Source of the DNA: a virus
Reading direction: 5' to 3' (one strand)
Length of the DNA: 11,682 bases
UHGV virus genome: UHGV-0087143
The notes beneath the pieces are model-generated. The model did no database searches and was not told the origin of the DNA. It saw only the letters and a list, made by a program, of their open reading frames with translations. Both the position numbers and the translations under genes were made by a program. This document shows positions 1-11,682 of the stretch, one piece after another (position 1 is the first letter of the stretch; every line of letters starts with the position of its first letter).

Positions 1-219
1 CTGATCCTGATCGTCTTGCCTTATTGAATATGATTGCTATTTGCATTTAAAATCGAGACCTGGTTTTTCTACTGAAATGATTATGACTTCAATGACCCTT
101 GAATGAAGTCTATTCGGTTTTCTTTAGATGTTCGCCTCACATAATCTTCAAGTGATGTTCCTTACATCTCCCTAGAGCGTTAAGATAGTTAACTGATTGA
201 GTTTTCAGGGTATGAAAGG

Positions 220-885
220 ATGAGCAACACTACCGACATCTTAAGCACGATAGCTGATATCACTATGGCTGGTACTGCTGTATGGGCTGCATTCAAAGCT
301 AATGATTGGTTTAAAACCAAGCGTCTTGAGAGTGCTGAAAACTTCTATAAAGAAGTACACAATCTCCATAAACGTTACTATTCAGCTATCCAATACGTTG
401 AGGATTCAAGAAGAATATTTGATAGTCAGTATGGGTTGCATTCGCCAATATCTGAACCTAAAGACAAGTCATTGCAATGGGGGGTTAAATCGAACTCTTA
501 CAAAATCATCGCTGAACTAGATTATCTGGCATCGTCACTACAAATGATGGATGCAATGGGTAACAAACTTAGCCCTAAATCGGCTTCACTGGTTAATGAT
601 ATGATGGAAGCACATGGACGATTCTGTAATGATGTGATGAACTTCAATGACTCAGTTTGGAAGGTTATAAGGGCAGGTATAACTGAAGAGAACATCCCAC
701 ATACGCGAGGCTATGTGAACGGCGATTACATGACTATCCTTACCAGTATGGATGAACCTGTAAGAATATCTTTTAGGTTAAAAGAAATCAGTTTTAAAGA
801 TTTTTACCTGCATGAAACTACTATGCAGTCAGTAATAACGAGGCTGAAATCGCTTATCGCCAGAACAGGTAAAAACAGGACATAA
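220..885 (+). CDS. Hypothetical protein, 221 aa, with N-terminal hydrophobic segment (ILSTIADITMAGTAVWAAF)
   Basis: Long ORF from ATG 220; weak SD-like AGGG 9 nt upstream; no domain recognised by eye. The 302-520 track ORF is nested in another frame and treated as spurious. Confidence 0.6.
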   Translation: MSNTTDILSTIADITMAGTAVWAAFKANDWFKTKRLESAENFYKEVHNLHKRYYSAIQYVEDSRRIFDSQYGLHSPISEPKDKSLQWGVKSNSYKIIAELDYLASSLQMMDAMGNKLSPKSASLVNDMMEAHGRFCNDVMNFNDSVWKVIRAGITEENIPHTRGYVNGDYMTILTSMDEPVRISFRLKEISFKDFYLHETTMQSVITRLKSLIARTGKNRT

Positions 886-897
886 ACAGGTTAGTAC

Positions 898-1015
898 CTA
901 TGCAATTTAAAGGCATTTTCCCAAGTATCTATGCAATCCTACACAGATTCTATGCAGTATCGATATAGTCTCTTTTTAGCGTAACCTATTGAAATATATA
1001 GAGAATCTATGAAGT
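898..1015. repeat. Cluster of four CTATG(C/A)A(A/G)T motifs (898-906, 929-937, 950-958, 1007-1015) plus a diverged ~22-bp direct repeat (965-986, 1011-1032)
   Basis: Read directly: cCTATGCAAT, tCTATGCAAT, tCTATGCAGT, tCTATGAAGT, all same strand; atagtctctttttagcgtaacc vs gaagtctcttttcagggtaaac. Confidence 0.5.
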
Positions 1016-1496
1016 CTCTTTTCAGGGTAAACTGTATCGTGTTAGTCGTCCCTCTCCAGACACTACATACAGTGCTATATACAGGGATATATAACGATAT
1101 ATAGTTGTTTGACCACTACCAATATTCCCTCAAAGTGACTATCAAGCTGCTTAACAGTTTCCCATGTGAAAGTTAGGAGGTGATGGTTATAGTTCCTTCG
1201 TAGTTCCTCTTAAAAAATCACTTGCAGACACCTTAATCTCTATACAGATTTCATGTAGAACACGATTAGTACGTAGAAGAGTCATTATGTTAAAAACACA
1301 CTGTGTTTATATCAGTACTGATTTATAAGGGTTTTGTGTATTGGGTGATAAGAGGCTATACAGCACCTTGAGAGCATGTCTTCTAAGTCATTGACATATA
1401 AGGTCACAGAAGTTTGTGTCTGTTACAGAGAAAACTGGACAGGACTTCACAGAACTATAAAATGTTACAGCTATTGATAGGTGAAATCTTCTTGAT

Positions 1497-1553
1497 AGAT
1501 GCTATGAAGTGTGATGAAGGCTTCTTGAGGTGGAGTTAACAGATGCTATGAAG
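1497..1553. repeat. Two perfect copies of 13-mer AGATGCTATGAAG, 44 bp apart (1497-1509, 1541-1553)
   Basis: Exact 13-bp direct repeat; shares the CTATGAAG core with the 898-1015 cluster. Confidence 0.6.
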
Positions 1554-2028
1554 AAAGTCAATAGTTGGTTATAGATATTTTAACTGCTTTTGCAAAGGGG
1601 GGTGCTATATCGTGAATCTGGGGTACTTAACAGCCATCAATCATGAGGTAGATTAGGGGTTGGTACAAGCCCAACTAACCGAATCAACTGTGTAGATATT
1701 TTTTAAGATTATCGGTGAAGGGGGAATGCAGAGGGGGTACTATGATTTTTATAAAAATTTTCAGAAGCCAAATAACCATTGTACAGATTTTATACAATCC
1801 TACCAAGCCTCATAGTTGATTCGATTAGGTGATTCAGTAATGAATTACTTCATGAAGCTAATCTCATAGAAAGCTCTGTAGCGAGTTTTAACCCCATTTT
1901 TAGGGGTAGTCTATAGGGATGTACCACCCACCTTAAAATAAAGGGGTAAAATCGCTTAGAATGCGTTACAGAGCGTCTGAGAAGCTATATTCACAGATTT
2001 TACTAAAGTCTCAGACTTCTAAGTAGTC

Positions 2029-2338
2029 TTTTTAACAGGAGGGGTTCCCCTATGGTCACATATCCCCTCTCTCGTTTAGTGGCCCTTGATAGCACCCGAT
2101 TAATAACCTAGAGAGTATGCCTGTAAAACTTCTGTATCAGGTCAACTATAAGAGGTCTGGATATTACCTTGTAAGATTCCTGGTAGTGATTATGCAGAGG
2201 GCTTGATAAGAGTGTTTAACGGGAGGAAGAGATATCTTTTTAACAGGAGGGTTCTTTCTCATGTATCACCCTCTCTTCCCGCTAAGTAAGCTACACAGAC
2301 CTAGAGAACATGCCTTCACAGCATCTATATCAGGTCAG
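2029..2338. repeat. Two diverged ~100-115-bp modules (about 2029-2145 and 2237-2338), each beginning TTTTTAACAGGAGGG
   Basis: Shared blocks in the same order: TTTTTAACAGGAGGG, CCCTCTCT(C)..TTAG, CCTAGAGA(G/A)(T/C)ATGCCT, TCT(G/A)TATCAGGTCA. Related CTCT(C)TCCCG(C/T)T(A/T)AG boxes recur at about 2727-2740 and 2910-2923. Confidence 0.6.
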
Positions 2339-2425
2339 ATTTAGAGGGTTTTGATAGAGTCTGTAAAGGTACTTGACAGGTAACTATGAAGTTGCTAGGA
2401 AGAGCTGTTTAACGGGAGGAAGAGA
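2213..2425. repeat. Perfect 20-bp direct repeat TGTTTAACGGGAGGAAGAGA (2213-2232 and 2406-2425)
   Basis: Exact match read in sequence; a related GTTTAACGGGGG lies at 3239-3250. Confidence 0.8.
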
Positions 2426-2847
2426 ACCATGAAACCGAAGGTAGGTTCTGTCTTAACAGTGAAGTCTTAAGAAATGTCTTGAGAGTTACCTAAACAAGCC
2501 TCTTAAGTAAAAGACAACACTCCAGAAAGAGTGTCTGTTTAACAAACTTCTCAAAAGCTCTTAAAAAGTCTGTTAAGAGAGGGCTATGTGAACATATCAT
2601 ACCATTTTGTCAATGCTTTTGTCTTTGACCTAAATCAATAAAATGTATCGTTTGATATGGTTTTAAGCAAGACGGCTAAAAAAATCTTTTTAGAGGGGCG
2701 CTTCGCTTGGGGTCACTATGTTCTTTCTCTCCCGTTAAGAGGGAAGTTACAGGGACATTTCAAAGCCCTGATAAGGTAAGCCCGATGATAACAGAAACAG
2801 AGGGCAAAACCACTTATCAACACTGTGAACGAATAACGTAAAGGGCT

Positions 2848-2884
2848 GGTTAAGAAGGTCGGTTAAGAAGGTCGGTTAAGAAGG
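2848..2884. repeat. Tandem array, about 2.8 copies of 13-bp unit GGTTAAGAAGGTC
   Basis: Copies at 2848-2860 and 2861-2873, partial copy 2874-2884; related TTAAGA(A/G)GG boxes at about 2464, 2570, 2735 and 2932. Confidence 0.8.
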
Positions 2885-2950
2885 GAGCTTCCCTTTCTTG
2901 GGTGTCGCTCTTCTCCCGCTTAGTGGATAGCTAAGAAGGCTTGAAGTTAT

Positions 2951-3126
2951 CTGTGAAGGTACTGGACAGTCTTATATATTGGGTGATTACAACTCGTTGA
3001 AAAATAAGTATTTTTAGAAATCACTGTTAAGGTTACAGAGTCAACTGTGAAGAGACTTGTCAGTTCTCTATATTGGGTGATTACAACTTATTGAAAAGTA
3101 AGAACTTTTAGAAATTACTGTCAGAG
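2951..3126. repeat. Two copies of a ~82-bp direct repeat (2951-3032 and 3045-3126), period 94 bp
   Basis: Identical 20-mer core TATATTGGGTGATTACAACT at 2975-2994 and 3069-3088 with ~85% identical flanks; partial third copy TATTGGGTGAT at 1339-1349; CTGTRAAGGTACTTGACAG-like heads also at 2361-2379. Confidence 0.8.
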
Positions 3127-3240
3127 AGGTGAATACTTGATAGATACAGCTTTCCGGTTCTGTCAAGCTATTTTTTAATAGATAGCACAAAATGCTAAAG
3201 ATACCCCTATACCATCTCGTACAGGGGGGGTTGAAGGAGT

Positions 3241-3429
3241 TTAACGGGGGTCTGTGTGGTTATCTGTTCTGGTCCTGTCCTTGAGGTCAAACGACCATTC
3301 ACGACCAAACAATCTGAACACGATAAACACTCTGACGATGAAATAGCGAAGTAGTAAGCCTGCAATCAGCCCAACACCTCCACCAGCCCATACATCAGGT
3401 GACCCCAGCTCAGGAGGGAGATTTACCAT
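3241..3429 (-). CDS. Small predicted membrane protein, 62 aa (one hydrophobic helix GGGVGLIAGLLLRYFIVRVFIVF, charged C-terminus)
   Basis: Track ORF on minus strand, divergent from the 3633 gene; weak SD GAAGG upstream; candidate promoter upstream. Could still be a chance ORF. Confidence 0.3.
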   Translation of the reverse strand: MVNLPPELGSPDVWAGGGVGLIAGLLLRYFIVRVFIVFRLFGREWSFDLKDRTRTDNHTDPR

Positions 3430-3514
3430 TCAATGTACCTTCTGTGTGCAATGCAAAAAAACATGTGACCATTCTCGATAGCCACGCTTCATATTTTCCC
3501 TCTCCCATAAACCC

Positions 3515-3544
3515 ATTATACCATAAATGTTAATAAATTGTTAA
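3515..3544 (-). promoter_or_regulatory. Candidate sigma70-type promoter (minus strand): TTAACA, 18-nt spacer, extended -10 TGGTATAAT
   Basis: Minus-strand -10 TATAAT is the complement of 3515-3520, TG of the extended -10 at 3522-3523, -35 TTAACA is the complement of 3539-3544. Confidence 0.4.
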
Positions 3545-3551
3545 AAAATAC

Positions 3552-3580
3552 TTGACATTAGTCTTTGAAACTGCTAGTAT
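3552..3580 (+). promoter_or_regulatory. Candidate sigma70-type promoter (plus strand): TTGACA, 17-nt spacer, TAGTAT
   Basis: TTGACA at 3552-3557 and TAGTAT at 3575-3580 with exact 17-bp spacing, ~50 nt upstream of the 3633 start codon. Confidence 0.5.
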
Positions 3581-3632
3581 TGTATATATAGTTAACAGGA
3601 AATTAACAAACACTAAGAGGGTCAGAATATGA

Positions 3633-4187
3633 ATGCAGGATTCAGAATTTAGAGCGATGCTTCAGGCATCAAGAGAACGCAACAAGCACAACTCCTACGC
3701 TTACACAGACACCCCCACCAGCTACGAAGTACCAGCCTTTTCCAAAACCGAACGTAAAAACATTGAAGCGGTCATTCGTAGCATTACGCCACGAGACAGA
3801 TTTATGCCAGTACGCAAAGAAAAAGAGAATACTTTAAAAACTTTCTTGATGAGCTTTGATTCTTACGAGCAACTACCATCAAAAATTGAAGATGTAATTA
3901 TCGGTACTTGTCGCAGTCTTGGAAGAGATAATTATCACCGGAAGGTTTTTTATTTACTGCGAAGTCTTGATGAGATTAGTTCAAGCACAGTGACGAGCCA
4001 TCTTCAAAGACAAGCAACCAGACTTAGCTACGAATTACCAAGTGATAAATATTGCGCTAACTTAGCCACTATTTGCATGAAAGTTATTGAGACAATTAAT
4101 CATCATGCGGAAGTTGGAAATATCAGCCTTACAACCAGTGAACCAGACTTTGAATTTGACGTATACGCACAAGCAGAGGAATTTTAA
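3633..4187 (+). CDS. Hypothetical protein, 184 aa, first gene of a rightward operon
   Basis: ORF with SD AAGAGG (3615-3620) upstream of ATG 3633; no domain recognised. The antisense track ORF 4062-4442 is treated as spurious. Confidence 0.65.
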   Translation: MQDSEFRAMLQASRERNKHNSYAYTDTPTSYEVPAFSKTERKNIEAVIRSITPRDRFMPVRKEKENTLKTFLMSFDSYEQLPSKIEDVIIGTCRSLGRDNYHRKVFYLLRSLDEISSSTVTSHLQRQATRLSYELPSDKYCANLATICMKVIETINHHAEVGNISLTTSEPDFEFDVYAQAEEF

Positions 4188-4188
4188 A

Positions 4189-4476
4189 ATGGAAAATAAA
4201 CACACACTAACCAGAGTTACAAAGACAGCCTTTGAAGAACTTAACCGAATCAAAAACATTACAGGTCTGCCACACTCAGCAGTGATGAAGCTTGCAATTA
4301 ACCGTGATATTAACGAACAAGATTTGCTTAATAGTCGCTTAGAGGCTGCAAGACACCATATCAGGATTAAGCAAGATGACCTTGATAGTCTGAAATCTTT
4401 AAATGCTTTTGGACTGGATTTAGCAAGGTTGCTAAGCATCAAAATTCACAAGTTAAAGTTAGAGATGGAGGTTTAA
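4189..4476 (+). CDS. Small putative DNA-binding protein, 95 aa, ribbon-helix-helix-like N-terminus plus C-terminal coiled coil
   Basis: Start chosen at ATG 4189 (GAGGA SD 8 nt upstream, directly after the upstream stop) instead of the overlapping in-frame track start 4087; N-terminal TRVTKTAFEELNRIKNITGLPHSAVMKLAI resembles a strand-helix-helix fold. Motif-level only. Confidence 0.5.
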   Translation: MENKHTLTRVTKTAFEELNRIKNITGLPHSAVMKLAINRDINEQDLLNSRLEAARHHIRIKQDDLDSLKSLNAFGLDLARLLSIKIHKLKLEMEV

Positions 4477-4862
4477 TGTATGACTTTTATAAACATCGTG
4501 ACCATTTGGTAAGATTTGACGGTAAAGTCTGGAAAGACGTAACACAAACCAATAAACCCAAGTTTACCCACCAGCAATTAGCCTCAAGATTTGATATCTG
4601 GACTGAAGCACAAAAAGATAATGGTGATTTCGAGTTTATCAGGGGTTTTGATTATGCTTACGAAGACGACCTTAAAGACGCCATTAAATTAATTGAGAAT
4701 TTCAACTCTATTAAAAATGGTGACAAGCACAAAGCCAATGGCAACAGATACGATAAAGATTTAATCATTGATGCAATCACCAAAGGACAATCACAAAGTT
4801 ATATTTCTGAGAAATACGGTTTATCACGCAGTCAATACTACAAGATTAAAGCGTCTGTGTAA
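4476..4862 (+). CDS. Putative helix-turn-helix DNA-binding protein, 128 aa
   Basis: Start ATG overlaps upstream stop (TAATG, translational coupling); C-terminal IDAITKGQSQSYISEKYGLSRSQYYKIK looks like a resolvase/sigma-region-4-type HTH. Confidence 0.6.
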   Translation: MYDFYKHRDHLVRFDGKVWKDVTQTNKPKFTHQQLASRFDIWTEAQKDNGDFEFIRGFDYAYEDDLKDAIKLIENFNSIKNGDKHKANGNRYDKDLIIDAITKGQSQSYISEKYGLSRSQYYKIKASV

Positions 4863-5000
4863 GCCTGTGAGAATGAGTGAGACTCAAAGATGAGCTACCC
4901 TATTACTAAGGTGTCTCACTCCCTCTGTAACCCGCATGGTTACTGGCCTCAGAATGGCTATTTTGGCAGATTTAAGATGTGTTTTTAGAGGATTTTAAAA

Positions 5001-5324
5001 ATGAACAATTACCCGCTACAGATTTTCGTTGATAGCGACACCGCTCTGATGATTCAGGCTTTCAGTGATTCCGGTGTATCAATTGACTTTGACAGGCTGT
5101 TAAGGCTAATGGCTAATAACTCAGAAACAATTGAAGATTTTATTCAGTCGGTGGAGTTTAACGAGCCTCGAATGATGCTACCAATTAAAGACAGCAACAT
5201 GAAAAGATTGGTTATCGAGCAAACGAACAAATACAGCGTTAGCCCTGAAAGATATCTCAAGGCAGCTATAGCAATTTTGTACGCTGACAATATTTTGGTG
5301 ACGGATTCGAAGGTGGTGCATTAA
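5001..5324 (+). CDS. Hypothetical protein, 107 aa
   Basis: ORF from ATG 5001; no domain recognised. Confidence 0.55.
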   Translation: MNNYPLQIFVDSDTALMIQAFSDSGVSIDFDRLLRLMANNSETIEDFIQSVEFNEPRMMLPIKDSNMKRLVIEQTNKYSVSPERYLKAAIAILYADNILVTDSKVVH

Positions 5325-5389
5325 TGGAATTGGTGATTATCTGTTTTGTATTGATTGGTATGATTGCAGGTGCATCTATTAAAGTATAA
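5324..5389 (+). CDS. Possible 21-aa hydrophobic peptide (MELVIICFVLIGMIAGASIKV)
   Basis: ATG overlaps stop of the 107-aa gene (TAATG); strong SD GAAGGTGG 7 nt upstream; entirely hydrophobic. Below the track length cut-off; speculative. Confidence 0.25.
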   Translation: MELVIICFVLIGMIAGASIKV

Positions 5390-5454
5390 ATGTTACCAAT
5401 CTGTTAAAAAGCTGTTGACAAATAACCTTAAGCATGACATAATTTTAATTATGG

Positions 5455-5481
5455 GAGAGTAATTCTCTCTTATATTTTTTT
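5455..5481 (+). terminator. Candidate rho-independent terminator for the 3633-5389 operon
   Basis: Stem GAGAG/CTCTC (5455-5459 / 5465-5469), loop TAATT, followed by TATATTTTTTT. Confidence 0.4.
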
Positions 5482-5659
5482 CAATAATCCGATGGATGGA
5501 TGGATATTCTGAGTTGGTGAGGTATGTTCTATACCGAACATTCTGAAAGGTGCAATGCTTTTCGCTACATGGCCTCTTATATAACCTGAGAGGTCATCTC
5601 GAAAAGTACTCTTGTTCATTCGTTTGAATCCTTCAGAAGTTTTAATTTCTTCACCTTAT

Positions 5660-5702
5660 GAATAGCCCTTTATAAGAAATTATCTAGGGCTATTCAGTTT
5701 TT
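5660..5702 (+). terminator. Candidate stem-loop/terminator: 10-bp stem GAATAGCCCT / AGGGCTATTC, 16-nt loop, then AGTTTTT
   Basis: Perfect 10-bp inverted repeat at 5660-5669 and 5686-5695; T-run only on the plus strand. Confidence 0.35.
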
Positions 5703-5776
5703 AAAAAGCATACTTGGCAAACCGCCTTTTAAGCCTCTTCTAAGTTCGAGGATGTCAGGTGTGCTTTTTAAAAACT
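5696..5776. promoter_or_regulatory. Perfect 15-bp inverted repeat pair AGTTTTTAAAAAGCA (5696-5710) / TGCTTTTTAAAAACT (5762-5776), 51 bp apart; operator-like
   Basis: Exact reverse complements; each contains the palindrome TTTTTAAAAA; ends 36 bp upstream of the 5812 start codon. Confidence 0.4.
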
Positions 5777-5811
5777 GAAACATAAATTATCTTAGAAGAG
5801 GAAAGGTATTA

Positions 5812-6516
5812 ATGGCTATCCGTGATGAAAATGAAATGATTATTGAAAGCCGACCAAGTGCACTTGATATTCACGAATTAACTTTGCGTGAATCTTTTGA
5901 TAGAGCTTGGCGGGAATCACACGAAGTAAATAAAGGTCCATATATTCCACCAGAACCACTCGAGATTCCAAGAGTTGAAATTGATTTTTCTATGAACGAA
6001 CAGTGTGAACTTGATTTGAAGTTGAAGCTACAACGCCGATATTTCCAAGCTATTAAAGACTCTCAAGAAGCAATGAGAAGTGTTTACGAGAAAATTCAGT
6101 CCAAGCTTGAAGACGAAATCGACGAAATGGCTATTTTGATGGAGCTTCAAACCAATTCTTATGCTTATTTCTCTCGACTAGACCGTGACGGTTGGGGGTA
6201 TGACCCTGTAGAGATTGGTAAAGTGATTGCAGATTTACCAGAAGGTCAAAGGGTTATTCGTACGGAAAGGGCCATCAGAGCGCCACATCGACTGTCTCTA
6301 ATTGTTGCTGATAAATCACAAGCTGAGCTTGAAGAAATTGCCAAAGAGAAACTGATGAAAGCAAGAGAAAATGAGATTAATTTGCTGAAATCAAGACTGG
6401 CTAAGCTGATTAGTGACCATCAAGCGCTGGCTAAGGAGTACCGTCAAGAGTTGGCACAGATTATCAGCTTCAATGATTTTCTGAGTGTTCCACGAGAATT
6501 TAGCAAGGCTGTTTGA
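5812..6516 (+). CDS. Hypothetical acidic protein, 234 aa, with C-terminal coiled-coil-like region
   Basis: ORF with SD GAGGAAAGG upstream of ATG 5812; no domain recognised. Confidence 0.65.
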   Translation: MAIRDENEMIIESRPSALDIHELTLRESFDRAWRESHEVNKGPYIPPEPLEIPRVEIDFSMNEQCELDLKLKLQRRYFQAIKDSQEAMRSVYEKIQSKLEDEIDEMAILMELQTNSYAYFSRLDRDGWGYDPVEIGKVIADLPEGQRVIRTERAIRAPHRLSLIVADKSQAELEEIAKEKLMKARENEINLLKSRLAKLISDHQALAKEYRQELAQIISFNDFLSVPREFSKAV

Positions 6517-6539
6517 TTATGAATTAAAAGAGGTGATTA

Positions 6540-6752
6540 ATGTTTGAAGAACGTTTAGAGACTATTCGGTCTGTTTGCGAAAGACTCCAGCTACAACCAA
6601 ATAGACAAAAGCTACGAATTAAGAATAACCGTCATTACATCACCTCACACAAACCAAAAACACGCAAGATTCCAAAGTGGTGTCTTGATAAATTACCAAG
6701 TGATTGTCAGATTGTCGGTGAAGATGGTAATTATTATCTTGTCAGACATTAA
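6540..6752 (+). CDS. Small basic protein, 70 aa (three Cys, Lys/Arg-rich centre)
   Basis: ORF with SD GAGGTG (6530-6535) before ATG 6540; function unknown. Confidence 0.5.
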   Translation: MFEERLETIRSVCERLQLQPNRQKLRIKNNRHYITSHKPKTRKIPKWCLDKLPSDCQIVGEDGNYYLVRH

Positions 6753-6802
6753 AAAAGAATTGGTTGGGTATATGAGATAGGTTCTATCGAATCTATAGTA
6801 CG

Positions 6803-6844
6803 GGGAGAGATTATCGATATTATTCGGTAGTTTCTCCCTTTTTT
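6803..6844 (+). terminator. Candidate terminator: stem GGGAGA/TCTCCC around a 24-nt loop (containing palindrome TATCGATA), followed by TTTTTT
   Basis: GGGAGA 6803-6808, TCTCCC 6833-6838, T6 at 6839-6844; loop unusually large so strength uncertain. Confidence 0.4.
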
Positions 6845-6893
6845 GTATATGAGGATAGTCTTCTATCCGAAGTCTATGAGGTGAAAAATATGA

Positions 6894-8978
6894 ATGAGCA
6901 AATTTACAGTTGATAGTTTTATTGTTGAGCTGGGCTTCAGTGAAAACGTTATTAAGGGATTGCAAAGAGTTGAAAAGGCAGCTTTGCAGTCAGCACAAAG
7001 AATTGAACGTAATTTGAATAGAGCGTTTAAGGTCGATACCAAGCAACTTGACAGCAATTTAACGGCTTCTTTAAAGTCAATGGAAGGGAAAATTAATAAG
7101 ACCTTTGACAAGATTGAGCAGCGTCTTAAAAACACTAGAGCGTTTAAGATTAAAACGGAAATTGAGGATACTTTAAAGCCACTTAGACAGCCAAGACAGC
7201 CACGAATTAGCGGCAACAGAGCAATCACAGCAGCTTATTCAGCGAATATGAGCAAGTTAAAGGGCTTTGACCCTATTTTGCAGAAATACATCAAATCTCA
7301 GTTTTACGGGCTATCTGCTAAAGCTGGGTCAATGGATAATTCAAAATTCAATGAGAAGTTAGCTCAGCTAAATGCTTCAGTCAGAGAAGCAATCACTAAA
7401 GCCAGAGGTCATACATCCACCAGCAAAAACAATCACAGTGAAAATGCTTCAAATGGTTTAGATGTATTAGCTACAAGTGCAATCAAAGCAGGTACAGCCA
7501 TTTATAGTTTTCAGACAGCCTTAGAAGCTTATAGGAAGGTTATGGAAGTTGGTCTGAAAAAAGAAGCATCACAACGAGCGGCACAATTCGTTTTAGGTGA
7601 TGAAGGTGCTAAACGAGCTACAGAATTTGTTAAGAATCTTGCTGATAGTAGTGGTGTAGACCAGATTGAAACATTAAGCAGTTTTGCTAAGTTTTCCGCT
7701 GGTGCTGGTGATATGAATGCAGACCAGAAAGAATCCTTATTTTCTAATGTGATTGGTACATCCCGACTAATGGGTTTAAGCACTGATGAGATTAACGGGA
7801 TTCTAAAAGCTTTCGAGCAGATGGCGAGCAAGGGCAAGATTCAAGCTGAAGAATTACGCGGTCAGTTAGGGGACAGAATGGCAGGTGCTTTTCAGTTATT
7901 TGCCAGAAGTCTTGGGATGACTACAGAAGAATTAGACAAGGCCATGAAGGACGGTAAGGTTCTTTCTAAAGATGTTCTTCCTAAAGTATCCGCTGAAATG
8001 GGAAGGATGATTGATAAAGCTGGTGGATGGGAAAAGATTATTAACTCTACTCAGACGCAGTTAGGCCGCCTTTCTAATTCATGGAATAATAATCTGGCCT
8101 TAATGTTCGACGGTTCACAGGAAGGTTTAACAGACTTTACAAGGTCACTGACTAATTTACTTAATTCACTAGGTGGTCAATCTAAAAATCTTGGTGAACA
8201 TTTTGGCGACTTGATGAAAAGCATGTCAAACGGTGTTGATGATTTAACCACGATTAGCTACCGAGCACAGGGATTCTTTGACAGAGTGACCCTTGCTTAC
8301 AGAGAATTAAATGACACTCAAAAAGCTGTAGCTGATGGTATCGCAAATGGCCTGTTAAGTGCATTAAAGGGGCTTGCTGGTATAGTCGCTGTAAGGTCTG
8401 GGATTGGTGCTGTAGGTGGTATCTGGAACTTAATTAGGGCTATTTCCACGCTTGGAAATGTAGCAAATACAGCAGCAGGAAGAATCAATTCACGTTCTGC
8501 TGGTAGTGTTGAAGGTGGTAAAGGAAAATTATCTGTAGCTGATGCAATTACCAAAGTAATGATTGTCGGTATGGCAACTGATGTGATTAACTCCATTGTT
8601 AAACCACTCTATGAACGCCAGATGAGTAAGTCAGATAATCCAATTGATAAAGTTGTAAGGTCAAAGGTGGAACCCACAGACCAAGCATTGACTGGTGACA
8701 TGAACTCTTTAGCTGCTGTTTTATGGGCTATGGTTCAGGGCAAATCAAAAGATGTTCCACAGTTTTCACCGGAAGCATTAAATAATCTGAAAGGTCGAGT
8801 GGAAACATTCACACAAGATTTAAAGGTTATCAAGCCGTCAGTAAATATTCAGCCTCAGACAATCAATATCACAACTCAGACGGTACTTGATGGAAAGGTT
8901 ATTGATGAAAGAACCACATCGCATATTAATCGTATGCAGGAAGATACCTTGATTAGCTCAGCTTACCCAGAGGAATAA
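6894..8978 (+). CDS. Phage tail tape measure protein-like, 694 aa
   Basis: Internal segment ...GLSTDEINGILKAFEQMASKGKIQAEELRGQLGDRMAGAFQLFARSLGMTTEELDKAMKDGKV... matches the conserved tape-measure core (ELRGQLGERLPGA-type motif); helical N-terminus and Gly/Ala-rich hydrophobic segment (GIANGLLSALKGLAGIVAVRSGIGAVGGIW) typical of tape measure proteins; SD GAGGTG (6878-6883) before ATG 6894. The four antisense track ORFs inside it are treated as spurious. Confidence 0.8.
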   Translation: MSKFTVDSFIVELGFSENVIKGLQRVEKAALQSAQRIERNLNRAFKVDTKQLDSNLTASLKSMEGKINKTFDKIEQRLKNTRAFKIKTEIEDTLKPLRQPRQPRISGNRAITAAYSANMSKLKGFDPILQKYIKSQFYGLSAKAGSMDNSKFNEKLAQLNASVREAITKARGHTSTSKNNHSENASNGLDVLATSAIKAGTAIYSFQTALEAYRKVMEVGLKKEASQRAAQFVLGDEGAKRATEFVKNLADSSGVDQIETLSSFAKFSAGAGDMNADQKESLFSNVIGTSRLMGLSTDEINGILKAFEQMASKGKIQAEELRGQLGDRMAGAFQLFARSLGMTTEELDKAMKDGKVLSKDVLPKVSAEMGRMIDKAGGWEKIINSTQTQLGRLSNSWNNNLALMFDGSQEGLTDFTRSLTNLLNSLGGQSKNLGEHFGDLMKSMSNGVDDLTTISYRAQGFFDRVTLAYRELNDTQKAVADGIANGLLSALKGLAGIVAVRSGIGAVGGIWNLIRAISTLGNVANTAAGRINSRSAGSVEGGKGKLSVADAITKVMIVGMATDVINSIVKPLYERQMSKSDNPIDKVVRSKVEPTDQALTGDMNSLAAVLWAMVQGKSKDVPQFSPEALNNLKGRVETFTQDLKVIKPSVNIQPQTINITTQTVLDGKVIDERTTSHINRMQEDTLISSAYPEE

Positions 8979-9212
8979 ACAATGTTAGAGCTACTAATAT
9001 TTATTGCCACACATGGCAACCTATTAATCTTTATCTAGTATGACGACTCAACTATGAATAGTCGAATGCTACGTGAAATCTCCTGAACAGATATACCCAC
9101 TGAAAAATAGAATTTACGTAGCTCACGCTTAACAGAGAAAATACTTATATATCAAAGGCTTGGTTAAAAATGACTGAAATACACTAAGTCTTTGAAATCA
9201 AAGGAGAATTTA

Positions 9213-9986
9213 ATGATTTACTCTAATCAGATTCGTTACAGTGGCAAAGATGGCATCTATTTCCACTTAAGAGATAATGTAGATGCCTTCTTAACTTTAT
9301 CAGCAACTGAGAACATGGAATTTGATAGCCCTATGCAGGTGACTACACAGAACATGCAATCAGGGCAAACCGTCACAGATAATGTGCAAAGAGCACCCAG
9401 AACAATCACTATTAGTGGTGTCGTTGTAGTTGGCTATGAAGGAAGCTTATTATTAACTCGTCAGGGTCAATTAGTAGAAAACTTCATCGACACCCTTGAA
9501 AGCTGGCGTGACCAGAAGCAGATTATTTCGGTCATCTGTAAAGATGGTATCAAGATTGATGACTCCATTATTACAAGTTTTAAAGCCTCTAAAGATGTTG
9601 GTATTTCAAATGGTCTAAGAATCCAGCTAACTTTTCAGGAAATTAACTTTAAAGCTGTTGTGGGGCAGACTGATATCTCGGCTGCAACTGGAAAAGCCGC
9701 GACTACGAATGATGGTGGTGTGACCAGTAAAAAGAATGCGGGTAACGTGACCACTGAACGCAATAACGCACCTATGCTGATGTGTCAGGAACTGTACAGT
9801 TACTCAGCATCTGAGCTATCTGATGAAGCGCTAAGGGTCCGTAGCAATTGCTCTAAAAATGTCACGGTGAAAGATGGTGTAAGCACCTTCACAGCCTCAG
9901 CTAATGAGCAGGCTTCAAAAGTGCTTAAGTCGGGTAATGCTTTACGGAAGTTTTCTGTGAATCCGAATAAGAAGGGCACTTATTGA
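9213..9986 (+). CDS. Hypothetical protein, 257 aa, downstream of the tape measure gene (possibly tail-associated by position only)
   Basis: Start chosen at ATG 9213 (SD AAGGAG 6 nt upstream) instead of the in-frame track start at 9192, which is a TTG codon; no domain recognised. Confidence 0.65.
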
Positions 9987-9990
9987 GACA

Positions 9991-10013
9991 TAAAAAGGGG
10001 CTTCATAGCCCCT
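9991..10013 (-). terminator. Rho-independent terminator for the recombinase gene, shared between convergent genes
   Basis: GC-rich stem AGGGGC/GCCCCT (9996-10001 / 10008-10013), 6-nt loop; on the minus strand the stem is followed by a U-run (complement of A-run 9992-9996); lies between the 9986 and 10019 stop codons. Confidence 0.6.
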
Positions 10014-10018
10014 GAAAA

Positions 10019-11539
10019 TTACAGTTGATAAGCGTCAATATCCAGTAGCTCTTTATCAGCAATTTCAAAGATTGGTGACCCATCATTTAGCGGTAACGGG
10101 TTTGTAGGTATGGTGATTTCAGTGTCGTTCTGTAGCGTTACAGTTACCGAATCCTTACCCAATGTAAGCCCTTTTAGATGTTTGGACAAAATCAACTGAC
10201 ACTCGACACGACCCGCTTTAGTTGTCAGGTCAATATCTTTAAGCTGGGGTAGTTCCTTATCAGTGAGTGAAGCCTTACGCCTCATGTTATCAATAGTAGT
10301 CTGTAGTTCTGTGCGCTTCTGGTTAAGTCCCTTCACCTGTGCTTTCAACTCTGTAATGTCATCCATTTCAAGAAGTAGGGCGGTAGCTTTCTTGATTCTG
10401 GCTGTGACAATTTCAACCTCATGCTGTAGAGATGCAATCTTCCCCTCTGCTTCTCCATCATTCCCCACGTCAATCATCCCCAGAAAATTATCAATCATCC
10501 ATCGGTCAAACGGTTTACGCTTCAACGGTGGAACATCACAGCGACCGTCTAAGTGGTTATTGCACCTGTAGACCCCTGCATACTTATTCTTGGTTCCGGT
10601 AGGATGGACACTAGCCCCACACTGACACCGGAATAATCCCTTGAAGATGTTAATCGTTAATGGGTTATCACTTGCAGGTGTGCGGCCTTTACGATTCTTG
10701 TCGAGAATCTCTTGAGCTTTATTGAACGTTGCAGCATCTATAGCGGCTTCGTAGTAGTTCGGTATAGCGGGGCGGTCATTACGCTGTGATGCTGGTAACG
10801 TGCCTATTGTTGTCTCCGACCTTAAGATGGTGCGTACAGAATGGACGCTAAACCCATTAGCATCTTTACGGCGACTAAACGACTTTATACCGTTGCTTTG
10901 AAGGTGACGGGCGATGTTATGCAGACTTTCACCACTTAGCAGCAGCTTGAAAATCAGTCTTACAGTCTCAGCGTGTTCATTGAGTTTGAGAGTATCGGGG
11001 TCAATCCATCCGGGAACCATCTTTGTTAAACGTTGTTTACCAGCAAGGGCAAGTTTTGCACGTTGTTTCCACTTCTCGCTAACACGGAAAGACTTCTGCT
11101 TACTCTCCTGATGCGCTAGGTAGCTTTTAACCCGCTGAATGATTGAGATTCCTAAATCATCGGATAGAGCATCCCTTGTGTAGATTAGCCCATCCTGTAG
11201 AGTGTGAATCTCGATACCATGAGCAATAATGCGATTCATCAAGGCTTCTGTTTCAAGATGCTCTAATCGGCCTATACGGTCGATACTCTCAACTAGCAGA
11301 ATTGTACCTCCTGGAAACTCCCCAGCCTCAATACGGGCTAACATGTCACCAAACTGACCAGTAAGGTGTTTACCTTTGTAACCGGATAGACCCTCATCAC
11401 TGAAAGACGCTACTACTTGAGCATCGCTATTCTTCTTCAACCATTGTTTGAACAGGTCGTTTTGTCGTCTGGTTGAATCAGCACCTTCAGCACCTTGTGT
11501 GGCTGATGAGAATCTCAAGTATGTTATTACGGTTCTCAC
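10019..11539 (-). CDS. int: Large serine recombinase (serine integrase), 506 aa
   Basis: N-terminal resolvase-type catalytic domain with the serine nucleophile motif (YLRFSSATQ) and downstream LLVESIDRIGR; central recombinase region; Cys-rich zinc-ribbon-like segment (CQCGAS...YRCNNHLDGRCD); C-terminal coiled-coil-like region. GTG start with SD GGGAG 9 nt upstream. Antisense track ORFs 10263-10571 and 10914-11111 treated as spurious. Confidence 0.9.
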   Translation of the reverse strand: MRTVITYLRFSSATQGAEGADSTRRQNDLFKQWLKKNSDAQVVASFSDEGLSGYKGKHLTGQFGDMLARIEAGEFPGGTILLVESIDRIGRLEHLETEALMNRIIAHGIEIHTLQDGLIYTRDALSDDLGISIIQRVKSYLAHQESKQKSFRVSEKWKQRAKLALAGKQRLTKMVPGWIDPDTLKLNEHAETVRLIFKLLLSGESLHNIARHLQSNGIKSFSRRKDANGFSVHSVRTILRSETTIGTLPASQRNDRPAIPNYYEAAIDAATFNKAQEILDKNRKGRTPASDNPLTINIFKGLFRCQCGASVHPTGTKNKYAGVYRCNNHLDGRCDVPPLKRKPFDRWMIDNFLGMIDVGNDGEAEGKIASLQHEVEIVTARIKKATALLLEMDDITELKAQVKGLNQKRTELQTTIDNMRRKASLTDKELPQLKDIDLTTKAGRVECQLILSKHLKGLTLGKDSVTVTLQNDTEITIPTNPLPLNDGSPIFEIADKELLDIDAYQL

Positions 11540-11611
11540 GGTGATAAACTCCCATGCAATTGATTATCATTTAAAGATGAACTTATAAACGTTATGGCTA
11601 ATGCTACAATG

Positions 11612-11640
11612 CCGAATAGCTACAATACAATGACCCTTGA
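11612..11640. other. Candidate recombinase attachment-site junction (right end), partner of 90-117
   Basis: CCGAATAG, 8-nt spacer, CAATGACCCTTGA, ~75 bp upstream of the recombinase start; sequence beyond 11640 turns GC-rich (CCTCGCCGCTTCCCCTGGCCGACG). Confidence 0.3.
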
Positions 11641-11682
11641 TTTACCTCGCCGCTTCCCCTGGCCGACGTTACTTTCGGTCTG

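What the first reader, a model, noticed from the sequence alone, without database searches (positions are those of the whole stretch)
3241..3580. Back-to-back divergent promoters controlling a small membrane protein gene and the main rightward operon
A near-consensus plus-strand promoter (TTGACA-17-TAGTAT) and a minus-strand extended -10 promoter have -35 elements only 8 bp apart, the classic layout of a genetic switch. The leftward transcript would encode a 62-aa single-helix membrane protein (toxin-, holin- or immunity-like) and run into the repeat region; its stop codon overlaps a GTTTAACGGGGG box.
Basis: partly seen in the sequence, partly recalled or inferred. Interest (0 to 1): 0.5.

Follow-up and report, generated by a model that had tools for sequence, protein, structure and literature searches.

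The report
Control region of a phage-linked island
Two conserved back-to-back promoters in an undescribed E. coli chromosomal island drive a real 62-residue membrane-protein gene leftward and the island's main operon rightward. They are flanked by repeated TGTTA sites that also crowd a non-coding region of Felix-O1-type phages, so this is probably the island's control point during infection by such a phage.

Summary
P(+) is TTGACA-17-TAGTAT with an upstream TG (3552-3580). P(-) is TTAACA-18-TATAAT with an upstream TG (3544..3515). Their -35 hexamers lie 7 bp apart. The hexamers are near-invariant in 16 relatives (70-96% identity) from E. coli, E. albertii, Citrobacter and Kluyvera.

The leftward ORF is a real gene. 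It is intact in all 16 relatives, median dN/dS is 0.19, and it forms an orphan family of one long transmembrane helix.

The "genetic switch" reading is only partly supported, because the left arm encodes an effector-like membrane protein, not a repressor. Operator-like sites do exist. Exact TGTTA-N6-TGTTA dyads bracket P(+) and overlap the -35 and spacer of P(-). A third dyad sits at the same distance upstream of a second, paralogous promoter at 5415-5443. That makes 3 dyads against 0.05 expected.

The window is an ~11.4-kb island between yciI and tonB. It carries a serine integrase and tail genes homologous to Felixounavirus. Phage wV8 has 16 such dyads (0.54 expected), 12 of them in one non-coding region, and that region shares its k-mer vocabulary with the island's own 2.3-kb non-coding stretch.

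Best reading: this is the regulatory hub of a satellite-like island tied to Felix-O1-type phages. The regulator and the membrane protein's role are not identified.

The parts
3241..3429 (-). Gene for a 62-aa single-pass membrane protein. It has an acidic N-terminus, a G16xxxG20xxxG24 motif, a hydrophobic helix carrying invariant R28 and R33, and a conserved LFGREWSFDLKD tail.
   Evidence: Intact in 16/16 relatives and dN/dS is 0.19. 76 protein clusters, all Enterobacteriaceae. Only 13 representatives among 1.8 billion proteins. Kyte-Doolittle maximum 2.2 for residues 19-37. AlphaFold2 gives one helix over residues 11-50, with pLDDT 89-95 for residues 21-40.
3204..3227 (-). Hairpin 13 nt after the stop codon, terminator-like but with a poor U tail.
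   Evidence: z = -2.07. Conserved in the E. coli group, exactly inverted in L008, and absent in Citrobacter and Kluyvera.
3430..3508 (-). 5' leader of the small gene. It holds the ribosome-binding site AGAAGGT (3437-3443), conserved boxes GCATTGCACACA (3443-3454) and GTCACATG (3462-3469), a weak hairpin (3465-3485) followed by U7 (3455-3461), a polypurine GGGAGAGGG (3498-3506), and a non-conserved 20-codon upstream ORF (3430-3492).
   Evidence: The U-run is lost in 5 of 16 relatives. 60-nt and 100-nt modules are inserted in some relatives.
3515..3544 (-). P(-): TTAACA-18-TGGTATAAT (extended -10). Inferred start near 3508.
   Evidence: 11 of 12 matches, TG present. TGGTATAAT is invariant in 16 sequences.
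3528..3543 (+). Upstream dyad TGTTA-N6-TGTTA. It ends 8 nt before the P(+) -35 and overlaps the -35 and spacer of P(-).
   Evidence: The pentamers are conserved while the 6-nt spacers vary. One half-site is lost in L002.
3552..3580 (+). P(+): TTGACA-17-TGcTAGTAT. Inferred start near 3587. An overlapping alternative is TTGAAA-16-TATAGT (3565-3592).
   Evidence: CTTGAC is invariant and the -10 reads TAnnAT in all relatives.
3593..3608 (-). Downstream dyad (TAACA-N6-TAACA on the + strand) at about +8/+19 of P(+), inverted relative to the upstream dyad. It overlaps the invariant GTTAACA (3591-3597).
3615..3635 (+). Ribosome-binding site AAGAGGG and start codon (3633) of the first gene of the rightward operon (184 aa). 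It is followed by a tandem ribbon-helix-helix-like 95-aa gene (4189-4476).
5391..5481 (+). Paralogous internal promoter P_int: TGTTA-N6-TGTTA-N8-TTGACA-17-TGaCATAAT, followed at once by a GGGAGAG/CTCTCTT hairpin and U7.
   Evidence: Hairpin z = -4.47. Compensatory stem changes occur in relatives.
3040..3200 (.). Highly conserved non-coding block just downstream of the small gene. It belongs to the island's 2.3-kb non-coding, repeat-rich region (886-3240).
   Evidence: No conserved RNA fold on either strand. k-mer sharing with the phage non-coding region.

Best explanation
The interval is the main transcriptional control region of an undescribed ~11.4-kb integrative island of Enterobacteriaceae. 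The island looks like a satellite, or a dedicated antagonist, of Felix-O1-type (Ounavirinae) phages.

Shown by sequence and comparison:
- Two conserved sigma-70 promoters fire back to back from start sites about 79 bp apart.
- P(-) heads a roughly 78-nt leader and a purifying-selected gene for a 58-62-aa membrane protein. That protein is predicted to have its N-terminus outside and C-terminus inside, as one long helix with a glycine zipper.
- P(+) heads the island's early operon.
- P(+) is bracketed by two inverted TGTTA-N6-TGTTA dyads, at about -57/-46 and +8/+19. The upstream dyad covers the -35 and spacer of P(-).
- A second island promoter, P_int, is a paralogue of P(+) with the same dyad at the same distance.

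Inferred:
- The dyads are operators for one dedicated DNA-binding protein that binds 11-bp-phased repeats. Binding at both dyads, about 65 bp apart centre to centre and so on nearly the same DNA face, would shut P(+) and occlude P(-). This would keep the island quiet in uninfected cells.
- The best in-island candidate is the conserved tandem ribbon-helix-helix-like 95-aa product of the operon's second gene, which would make this negative autoregulation.
- The same phased TGTTA repeats fill a 0.8-kb stretch of the phage's large non-coding region. Infection would therefore change occupancy of the island's operators. It could do so through a phage protein that binds these repeats, or by titrating the island's repressor, and so release P(+), P_int and P(-).
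- The small membrane protein is then an infection-stage effector acting at the inner membrane (lysis timing or exclusion), not a regulator.
For: Promoters. Their conservation against a variable background.

Gene reality. Topology and helix.

Dyads: 3 exact copies against 0.05 expected, with a maximum of 1 in 300 simulations. The composite TGTTA-N6-TGTTA-N8-TTGACA occurs exactly at both promoters in 9 of the 17 loci then held, and at one promoter in 4 more. The remaining relatives keep both pentamers but with N7 or N9 spacing, or with a half-site lost (L002). P(+) and P_int also share TGTATATAT after the -10.

Island identity: it lies between yciI and tonB and has a large serine recombinase, a tape measure protein (TMP) and a Dit-like protein. 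It also occurs at other attachment sites and once with a tyrosine integrase. The control region is found in 414 of 5426 complete E. coli genomes.

Phage link: the Dit-like gene is 95% nt identical over 510 nt to Felixounavirus. The TMP is 30-33% aa identical, full length in some phages, and in the same gene order. Phage wV8 has 16 dyads against 0.54 expected, 12 of them within 14.37-15.13 kb of a 1.6-kb non-coding region. That region is conserved in 255 Ounavirinae records. It is the single outlier for k-mers shared with the island's non-coding DNA (k=9: 175 vs 63.6 +/- 18.6; k=10: 81 vs 19 +/- 9), and a control using island coding DNA shows no peak.

Ribbon-helix-helix-like gene: a two-fold beta-helix-helix repeat pattern and a weak DndE hit.
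Against: There are no transcription data, so both start sites are inferred.

Both promoters are near consensus and could simply be constitutive.

The regulator is unidentified. The 95-aa protein gave an unusable model (pLDDT 47) and has only sub-threshold family hits. No island protein other than the TMP and the Dit-like protein has a homologue in phage wV8.

TGTTA is short and the region is AT-rich. The upstream dyad could act as an UP element, an H-NS site or a host response-regulator site. L002 has lost one half-site.

Helper dependence of the island is inferred from gene content and shared motifs only. No virome or packaging evidence was obtained.

The role of the membrane protein rests on analogy alone.
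Confidence: 0.55

Rival explanations
1. The small gene with P(-) is a self-contained toxin module of the type I toxin or abortive-infection kind. It would be expressed or attenuated through its leader and be functionally unrelated to control of the rightward operon. The back-to-back layout would just reflect compact packing.
For: The protein is small, hydrophobic and has a glycine zipper. The leader is about 78 nt long with conserved boxes. In this window it also has a hairpin with a U-run and an upstream ORF abutting the start codon. The family is an orphan.
Against: No promoter-like site on the opposite strand between 2601 and 3551 that could make an antisense RNA. The leader's U-run and upstream ORF are not conserved. 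The protein has a conserved hydrophilic tail, which I recall classical type I toxins lack. The -35 and spacer of P(-) are physically inside the dyad shared with P(+) and P_int.
Confidence: 0.2
2. The TGTTA repeats are not operators of an island-specific or phage-specific regulator. They would be AT-rich UP-element-like DNA, or sites for host proteins such as H-NS or an OmpR/PhoP-type response regulator that binds 11-bp-phased direct repeats. On this view the promoters are constitutive or host-controlled.
For: The dyads lie in AT-rich DNA at -38 to -60, where I recall UP elements lie. They resemble the PhoP box (T/G)GTTTA-N5-(T/G)GTTTA, recalled from memory, with one mismatch per half-site. Both promoters are already near consensus.
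Against: The pentamers are conserved while the spacers between them vary. A third dyad lies downstream of the P(+) start in inverted orientation, which an UP element does not explain. The same phased repeats are massively enriched in one non-coding region of the related phage.
Confidence: 0.2
3. This is a classic bistable immunity switch like lambda PR/PRM or the SaPI stl/str region, in which the leftward transcript encodes the maintenance repressor.
For: Back-to-back promoters with start sites about 79 bp apart and repeats overlapping them. I recall a comparable spacing for lambda PR/PRM (about 80 bp).
Against: The only leftward gene is a 62-aa membrane helix with no DNA-binding features. Nothing else is called for at least 1.2 kb leftward in the six relatives (L010-L015) whose gene calls were listed, and no ORF of 55 aa or more lies between 886 and 3240 in the window. 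No CI, Cro or Stl homologue was found.
Confidence: 0.04
4. The promoters are chance consensus matches and the ORF is a non-coding artefact.
For: The total number of promoter-like matches in the window equals the shuffled expectation.
Against: Hexamer invariance across 16 sequences that are otherwise 70-96% identical. A codon-position bias of 31/14/46, dN/dS of 0.19 and in-frame indels only.
Confidence: 0.02

Closest known systems
Lambda-type PR/PRM divergent immunity promoters
   Same: Two sigma-70 promoters back to back, with start sites about 80 bp apart and repeated protein-binding sites overlapping them. One bound protein can affect both directions.
   Different: The leftward gene encodes a membrane protein, not the repressor. 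There are no CI or Cro homologues. The sites are 11-bp-phased direct pentamer repeats in two inverted pairs, not 17-bp palindromic operators.
Master control region of phage-inducible chromosomal islands (SaPI stl/str)
   Same: A divergent control region sits between a leftward unit and the main rightward operon of a small integrative, helper-linked island. De-repression is expected on helper infection.
   Different: No Stl-like repressor gene. A large serine integrase lies at the far end. The helper candidate is a virulent myovirus. No sequence homology.
Vibrio cholerae PLE, satellite of the lytic myovirus ICP1, including its small membrane protein LidI
   Same: A small island with a large serine recombinase and mostly orphan genes, linked to a virulent myovirus. 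From memory, PLE also has a repeat-bearing non-coding region. PLE encodes a 66-aa transmembrane protein, LidI, which is made only during infection and which the authors name a lysis-inhibition disruptor (PMC7182436).
   Different: No detectable homology. Here the small gene sits at the central promoter region behind a consensus extended -10 promoter. This island carries TMP and Dit homologues of its presumed helper. Helper dependence is untested.
Autoregulated rep promoters of iteron plasmids (general knowledge)
   Same: Phased direct repeats occur elsewhere in the element, and inverted copies bracket the promoter of the adjacent operon. This is the layout by which an iteron-binding protein represses its own gene.
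   Different: The repeat unit is a 5-bp core at 11-bp phase rather than 17-22-bp iterons. No Rep homologue was identified. The densest arrays are in the phage, not the island.
Type I toxins (Hok, TisB, Ldr and similar) and one-TMD holins
   Same: A short single-helix membrane protein with a glycine-rich helix face and a charged C-terminus. The mRNA has a long leader.
   Different: No antisense RNA promoter, no endolysin or spanin neighbours, and no sequence similarity. The amphipathic and charged tail is conserved.

Membership tests
Back-to-back sigma-70 divergent promoter pair | Two promoters on opposite strands with -35/-10 hexamers at 16-18-nt spacing and divergent start sites less than 100 bp apart | tested here: met
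   10/12 and 11/12 matches, both with TG. Hexamers are invariant in 16 relatives.
Back-to-back sigma-70 divergent promoter pair | Experimentally mapped transcription start sites | not testable with these tools
   No transcriptome data are available here.
CI/Cro- or Stl-type bistable switch | The leftward transcript encodes the maintenance repressor (a DNA-binding protein) | tested here: not met
   The leftward gene is a 62-aa membrane helix. No DNA-binding family hit.
CI/Cro- or Stl-type bistable switch | Operators overlapping both promoters | tested here: inconclusive
   TGTTA dyads overlap the -35 and spacer of P(-) and bracket P(+). Protein binding was not shown.
Type I toxin-antitoxin | Small hydrophobic membrane peptide | tested here: met
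   58-62 aa with a single hydrophobic helix.
Type I toxin-antitoxin | Antisense or divergent small-RNA antitoxin with its own promoter | tested here: not met
   No plus-strand promoter-like site between 2601 and 3551 at the scan threshold. No Rfam hit in the region.
Type I toxin-antitoxin | Toxicity on overexpression | not testable with these tools
   Needs an experiment.
Holin or lysis-timing protein (LidI-like) | At least one transmembrane domain and a charged hydrophilic C-terminus | tested here: met
   The C-terminal tail has 6 K/R and 5 D/E.
Holin or lysis-timing protein (LidI-like) | Location in a lysis cassette next to an endolysin or spanin, or homology to a known holin or LidI | tested here: not met
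   No lysis genes in the island. No match in 50,697 phage records. Not compared directly with the LidI sequence.
Phage satellite (PLE/PICI-like) | A small integrative element with an integrase and no capsid or terminase genes | tested here: met
   About 11.4 kb between yciI and tonB, with a large serine recombinase. Only the TMP and Dit-like genes are structural.
Phage satellite (PLE/PICI-like) | A specific link to a helper phage | tested here: inconclusive
   The TMP and Dit-like genes are homologous to and in the same order as those of Felixounavirus, with 95% nt identity over 510 nt. Non-coding k-mers and TGTTA arrays are shared. This is suggestive only.
Phage satellite (PLE/PICI-like) | Helper-induced excision, replication and packaging | not testable with these tools
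   IMG/VR hits are 25-54-kb contigs, not island-sized units.
PhoP-box-type operator | Match to (T/G)GTTTA-N5-(T/G)GTTTA (consensus recalled from memory) | tested here: not met
   The P(+) upstream and downstream dyads match only with 2 mismatches, one per half-site. The P_int dyad itself (5391-5406) is not among the matches within 2 mismatches, only an offset site at 5402-5418.

The most novel reading that the evidence does not exclude
The TGTTA dyads make this region a helper-sensing switch that works through shared DNA sites. The protein that occupies the phased TGTTA arrays in the Felixounavirus non-coding region would also act on the island's P(+), P_int and P(-). Alternatively, the incoming and replicating phage arrays would titrate an island repressor off the promoters. 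Either way, infection by a virulent Felix-O1-type phage would switch on a previously unrecognised satellite family found in about 8% of complete E. coli genomes. The small membrane protein would be one of its infection-stage effectors.
Probability: 0.2. Interest if true: 0.8.

Novelty: new variant of a known kind. Interest (0 to 1): 0.55.

Why it matters
Felix-O1-type phages are widely used for typing and biocontrol of Salmonella and E. coli. In the papers I could search, no paper containing 'Felixounavirus' (or 'FelixO1') also mentions a phage satellite; a broader query surfaced none among the 15 it listed.

If this island family is such a satellite or antagonist, the interval examined here is where its expression is decided. 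That gives a compact, testable handle: three promoters, three dyads and two candidate regulators.

It would also give a function-ready orphan membrane protein, and a possible example of a mobile element that recognises its phage through shared DNA repeats rather than through a protein-protein trigger.

If the promoters are simply constitutive, this is an ordinary promoter region of a mobile element.

Tried and rejected
- **Rfam**, whole window at E <= 1: only two sub-threshold hits elsewhere.
- **Protein family libraries** (Pfam, PHROGs, PADLOC, NCBIfam) for the small protein and its operon neighbours: nothing above threshold.
- **PDB sequence searches** for the 95-, 128- and 184-aa proteins: nothing.
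- **Profile search of 1.8 billion representative proteins** with the small-protein alignment: only the family itself.
- **AlphaFold2 of the 95-aa ribbon-helix-helix-like protein**: pLDDT 47, so I ran no fold search.
- **Conserved RNA structure** in the non-coding block 3040-3240 and in the leader: none on either strand, apart from a weak 7-bp consensus stem in the leader on the transcribed (minus) strand. The leader fold is not better than shuffles (z = -0.7). I therefore dropped the idea of a structured 3' UTR or small RNA.
- **Leader terminator and upstream ORF as a conserved attenuator**: rejected, because the U-run is missing in 5 of 16 relatives and the upstream ORF's start codon is lost in L001, L002, L007 and L008.
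- **Boxes complementary to the conserved leader boxes** elsewhere in the window: at chance level.
- **Genome-contig scan** with the 184-aa protein: one locus only.
- **Viral-contig scan for three phased TGTTA repeats**: non-specific, 120 or more unrelated contigs.
- **Locating the phage's terminal repeats relative to its TGTTA region** (UAB_Phi87 and NBEco004 records): the records are not oriented by their physical ends.
- **Literature**: nothing on this island, nor on satellites of Felixounavirus, in the library searched. SpLE2 of O157:H7 Sakai may be a relative, but that rests on memory only and is unverified.
Full report
**What the window is.** The 11,682-base window is an ~11.4-kb island inserted between yciI and tonB of E. 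coli. Its two ends match the tonB/yciI region found in nearly all E. coli genomes, and close relatives sit at the same site. From left to right it holds:
- a 221-aa orphan gene;
- about 2.3 kb with no ORF of 55 aa or more (886-3240);
- the 62-aa ORF on the minus strand;
- a rightward operon (184 aa, 95 aa, 128 aa, 107 aa);
- a second non-coding stretch;
- genes of 234 and 70 aa, a tape measure protein (TMP) and a Dit-like baseplate protein;
- a large serine recombinase reading inward.

Relatives also occur at yecE/yecN, at rutG/ymdF and next to nqrM, and one has a tyrosine integrase. The 500 bases around the finding occur in 414 of 5426 complete E. coli genomes at 75-96% identity. They also occur in E. 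albertii, Citrobacter and Kluyvera.

**The observation.** The consensus scan reports P(+) at 3552-3580 (TTGACA-17-TAGTAT, with TG) and P(-) at 3544..3515 (TTAACA-18-TATAAT, with TG). Both are among the five best of 28 sites. The total of 28 equals the shuffled expectation of 28.3, so a match by itself proves nothing. I therefore aligned 16 versions of window 3040-3700.
- On the minus strand TGGTATAAT is invariant.
- On the plus strand CTTGAC is invariant, and the -10 reads TAGTAT, TAAGAT or TAGGAT, so positions 1, 2, 5 and 6 are fixed.
- The bases between these elements vary. The leader of the small gene carries insertions of about 60 and 100 nt in some relatives.
- The -35 hexamers are 7 bp apart, and the inferred start sites (A3508, about 3587) are about 79 bp apart.

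**The small ORF is a gene.** tblastn finds it intact in every relative. The 16 sequences encode 58-62 residues and all length differences are in frame. Variable sites by codon position are 31/14/46, and median pairwise dN/dS is 0.19 over 98 pairs. An AAGG/AGGA ribosome-binding site is kept at similar spacing in the sequences inspected, although the surrounding bases differ.

The protein database holds 76 clusters, all from Enterobacteriaceae. P5, L8, D12, G20, R28, R33 and V37 are invariant, and the LFGREWSFDLKD stretch is nearly invariant. A profile search of 1.8 billion representative proteins found only this family. Phage genomes hold no match, and no family library has a hit.

Hydropathy peaks at 2.2 for residues 19-37. 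The N-terminus has net charge -2 and the C-terminal part has six K/R, which predicts N-out/C-in by the positive-inside rule. AlphaFold2 gives one helix over residues 11-50, with pLDDT 89-95 over 21-40. G16xxxG20xxxG24 is a glycine-zipper pattern.

The only disrupted copy I saw is in O157:H7 Rafaela_II, where an IS3-family element (annotated IS1203) sits at that position.

**What lies downstream and upstream of the gene.** A 9-bp hairpin follows the stop codon by 13 nt (3204-3227; z = -2.1), but its U tail is poor. It is conserved in the E. coli group, exactly inverted in L008, and missing in Citrobacter and Kluyvera.

The leader contains invariant boxes GCATTGCACACA and GTCACATG, and a polypurine GGGAGAGGG at its 5' end. 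In this window it also has a weak hairpin with U7 and a 20-codon upstream ORF ending one base before the start codon. The U-run and the upstream ORF are not conserved.

The box at the stop codon is a one-mismatch copy of TTTAACRGGRGG (5 hits against 0.16 expected). In relatives it drifts and codes DPR*/DPS* throughout.

**Operator-like sites.** Exact TGTTA-N6-TGTTA occurs three times in the window: 3528-3543 (+), 3593-3608 (-) and 5391-5406 (+). Markov simulations give 0.05 expected, with a maximum of 1 in 300.
- The first dyad ends 8 nt before the P(+) -35 and covers the -35 and spacer of P(-).
- The second is inverted and lies at about +8/+19 of P(+).
- The third ends 8 nt before the -35 of another near-consensus promoter, P_int (5415-5443, TTGACA-17-CATAAT with TG).

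The composite TGTTA-N6-TGTTA-N8-TTGACA is found exactly at both promoters in 9 of the 17 loci then held, and at one promoter in 4 more. The other relatives keep the pentamers with N7 or N9 spacing, or have lost a half-site (L002). P(+) and P_int also share TGTATATAT after the -10, so they are paralogues. Across relatives the pentamers stay while the 6-nt spacers change, for example ATAAAT, CGAAAA, CCAATC and TCACGA.

P_int is followed at once by a GGGAGAG/CTCTCTT hairpin (z = -4.5) that shows compensatory changes in relatives. It is followed by U7 only in some. The P(-) transcript begins with the same UAUGGGAGAG.

Repeats phased at 11 bp suit proteins that bind as tandem units on one DNA face. 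That point comes from general knowledge of ribbon-helix-helix and winged-helix regulators. The dyads are not canonical PhoP boxes: the two at P(+) need 2 mismatches, and the P_int dyad is not matched at all within that limit.

**Link to Felix-O1-type phages.** The Dit-like gene is 94-96% identical in DNA over about 510 nt to more than 200 Felixounavirus records. The TMP's best matches are Felixounavirus TMPs (30-33% aa, full length in some phages), and the two genes are adjacent in the same order in the phage. No other island protein has a homologue in phage wV8.

wV8 has 16 TGTTA dyads against 0.54 expected. Twelve lie within 14.37-15.13 kb, inside a 1.6-kb stretch without genes between convergent transcription units (PMC3185647 for the transcription units). 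This stretch is conserved, and carries no annotated gene in nearly all of the sampled records, among 255 Ounavirinae records from Escherichia, Salmonella, Shigella and Citrobacter phages.

An alignment-free test supports a specific relationship. Among all 1.6-kb windows of the phage, this stretch is the single outlier for k-mers shared with the island's non-coding DNA (k=9: 175 vs 63.6 +/- 18.6; k=10: 81 vs 19 +/- 9). An equal length of island coding DNA shows no peak. One phage site (ATGTTAATAGCTTGTTAAAAAG) is nearly the island's upstream dyad. The conserved island block 3040-3240 has no conserved RNA fold on either strand, so it more likely acts as DNA.

**Candidate regulators.** The second gene of the P(+) operon (95 aa) is a core gene, 63-98% identical in all but one truncated relative. 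Its sequence reads as two beta-helix-helix repeats, and it has a weak DndE hit. The AlphaFold2 model was too poor to use (pLDDT 47). The 184-aa first gene has no informative hit. The 128-aa protein with a C-terminal helix-turn-helix is replaced by other genes in relatives, so it is not a core regulator.

**Interpretation.** Shown:
- two real promoters;
- a real membrane-protein gene;
- a shared dyad signature at two paralogous promoters;
- an island with tail-gene and non-coding-DNA ties to Felixounavirus.

Inferred:
- the dyads are operators of one dedicated protein;
- occupancy of the two inverted dyads, about 65 bp centre to centre, silences P(+) and P(-);
- phage infection changes that occupancy;
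- the membrane protein is an infection-stage effector. The closest analogue is the 66-aa LidI of the V. cholerae satellite PLE, a transmembrane protein seen only during infection (PMC7182436). That is an analogy, not homology.

The classic CI/Cro-type switch is contradicted on its defining feature, because the left arm has no regulator.

**Verdict.** By itself the promoter pair is an ordinary feature of a mobile element. The shared TGTTA repeats and the phage connection make it a good entry point into what seems to be an undescribed satellite-like island family. My literature searches found no description of it.

Noticed in passing
window 1-11682: The whole window is an ~11.4-kb island between yciI and tonB with a large serine recombinase (10019-11539, minus strand). 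Relatives sit at yecE/yecN, at rutG/ymdF and beside nqrM, and one has a tyrosine integrase and no Dit-like gene. I found no description of it in the literature I could search.
   Followed up: partly
window 9192-9986 and 6894-8978: The Dit-like gene is 94-96% nt identical over about 510 nt to more than 200 Felixounavirus genomes, which points to recent exchange. The adjacent TMP is only 30-33% aa identical to the phage TMP but lies in the same gene order.
   Followed up: yes
window 886-3240; L018 13940-15530 (phage wV8): The island's 2.3-kb non-coding region is full of degenerate repeats such as GGTTAAGAAGG x3, CTGTTAAG, TTTAACGGGAGG and AGAGGG. It shares its k-mer vocabulary specifically with the 1.6-kb non-coding region of Felixounavirus wV8. 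It may mimic the phage's origin or packaging region. Where the phage's 608-bp terminal repeats lie relative to that region could not be determined.
   Followed up: partly
window 5391-5481: An internal near-consensus promoter is followed immediately by a strong hairpin and U7. That would give a transcript of about 35 nt unless it is read through, which suggests antitermination-type control of the late (tail) genes. Similar GGGAGAG/CTCTCCC stems recur at the 6802-6839 terminator and in the non-coding repeats.
   Followed up: partly
window 5325-5390: A 21-codon hydrophobic mini-ORF (MELVIICFVLIGMIAGASIKV) abuts the stop codon of the 107-aa gene. Its 3' end appears in only some relatives (window, L004, L008).
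   Followed up: partly
window 3204-3227; L008 4055-4079: The 24-nt hairpin after the small gene's stop codon is exactly reverse-complemented in one relative. This is a micro-inversion of a quasi-palindrome. On one strand it reads TGGTATAGG, which resembles an extended -10.
   Followed up: no
window 1868-2018; L012 6612-6760; L001 7920-8065: A ~150-nt non-coding module from the left non-coding region recurs at 70-88% identity inside intergenic gaps of the rightward operon in relatives, in either orientation. A ~41-nt module (window 1654-1694) is likewise inserted in the small gene's leader in some relatives (L001, L007, L008). Non-coding modules appear to move within the family.
   Followed up: no
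window 2216-2232, 2409-2425 versus 2722-2738: The ribosome-binding-site-like TTAACGGGAGGAAGAG (two copies) is 82-84% complementary to TCTTTCTCTCCCGTTAA about 300-500 nt away. If transcribed, these could pair in the way P4/P1-type antisense immunity RNAs do.
   Followed up: no
L017 7744-8957 (E. coli O157:H7 Rafaela_II): In O157:H7 a related island sits in yecE, and an IS3-family element (annotated IS1203) is inserted where the small gene lies. This may be the 'SpLE2' integrative element of strain Sakai, but that identification rests on memory and was not verified.
   Followed up: partly
L003 2370-2918, L005 1296-1871, L010 9441-10010, L013 9281-9832: Many relatives carry a small resolvase/invertase-type serine recombinase gene inside the left non-coding region, in either orientation. 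Others carry a DNA adenine methyltransferase or an AP2-family gene there. It looks like a variable cargo or invertible segment.
   Followed up: no
window 4189-4476: The 95-aa core protein reads as two tandem ribbon-helix-helix-like repeats in one chain, a possible single-chain pseudo-dimer. The AlphaFold2 model was too poor to confirm this.
   Followed up: partly
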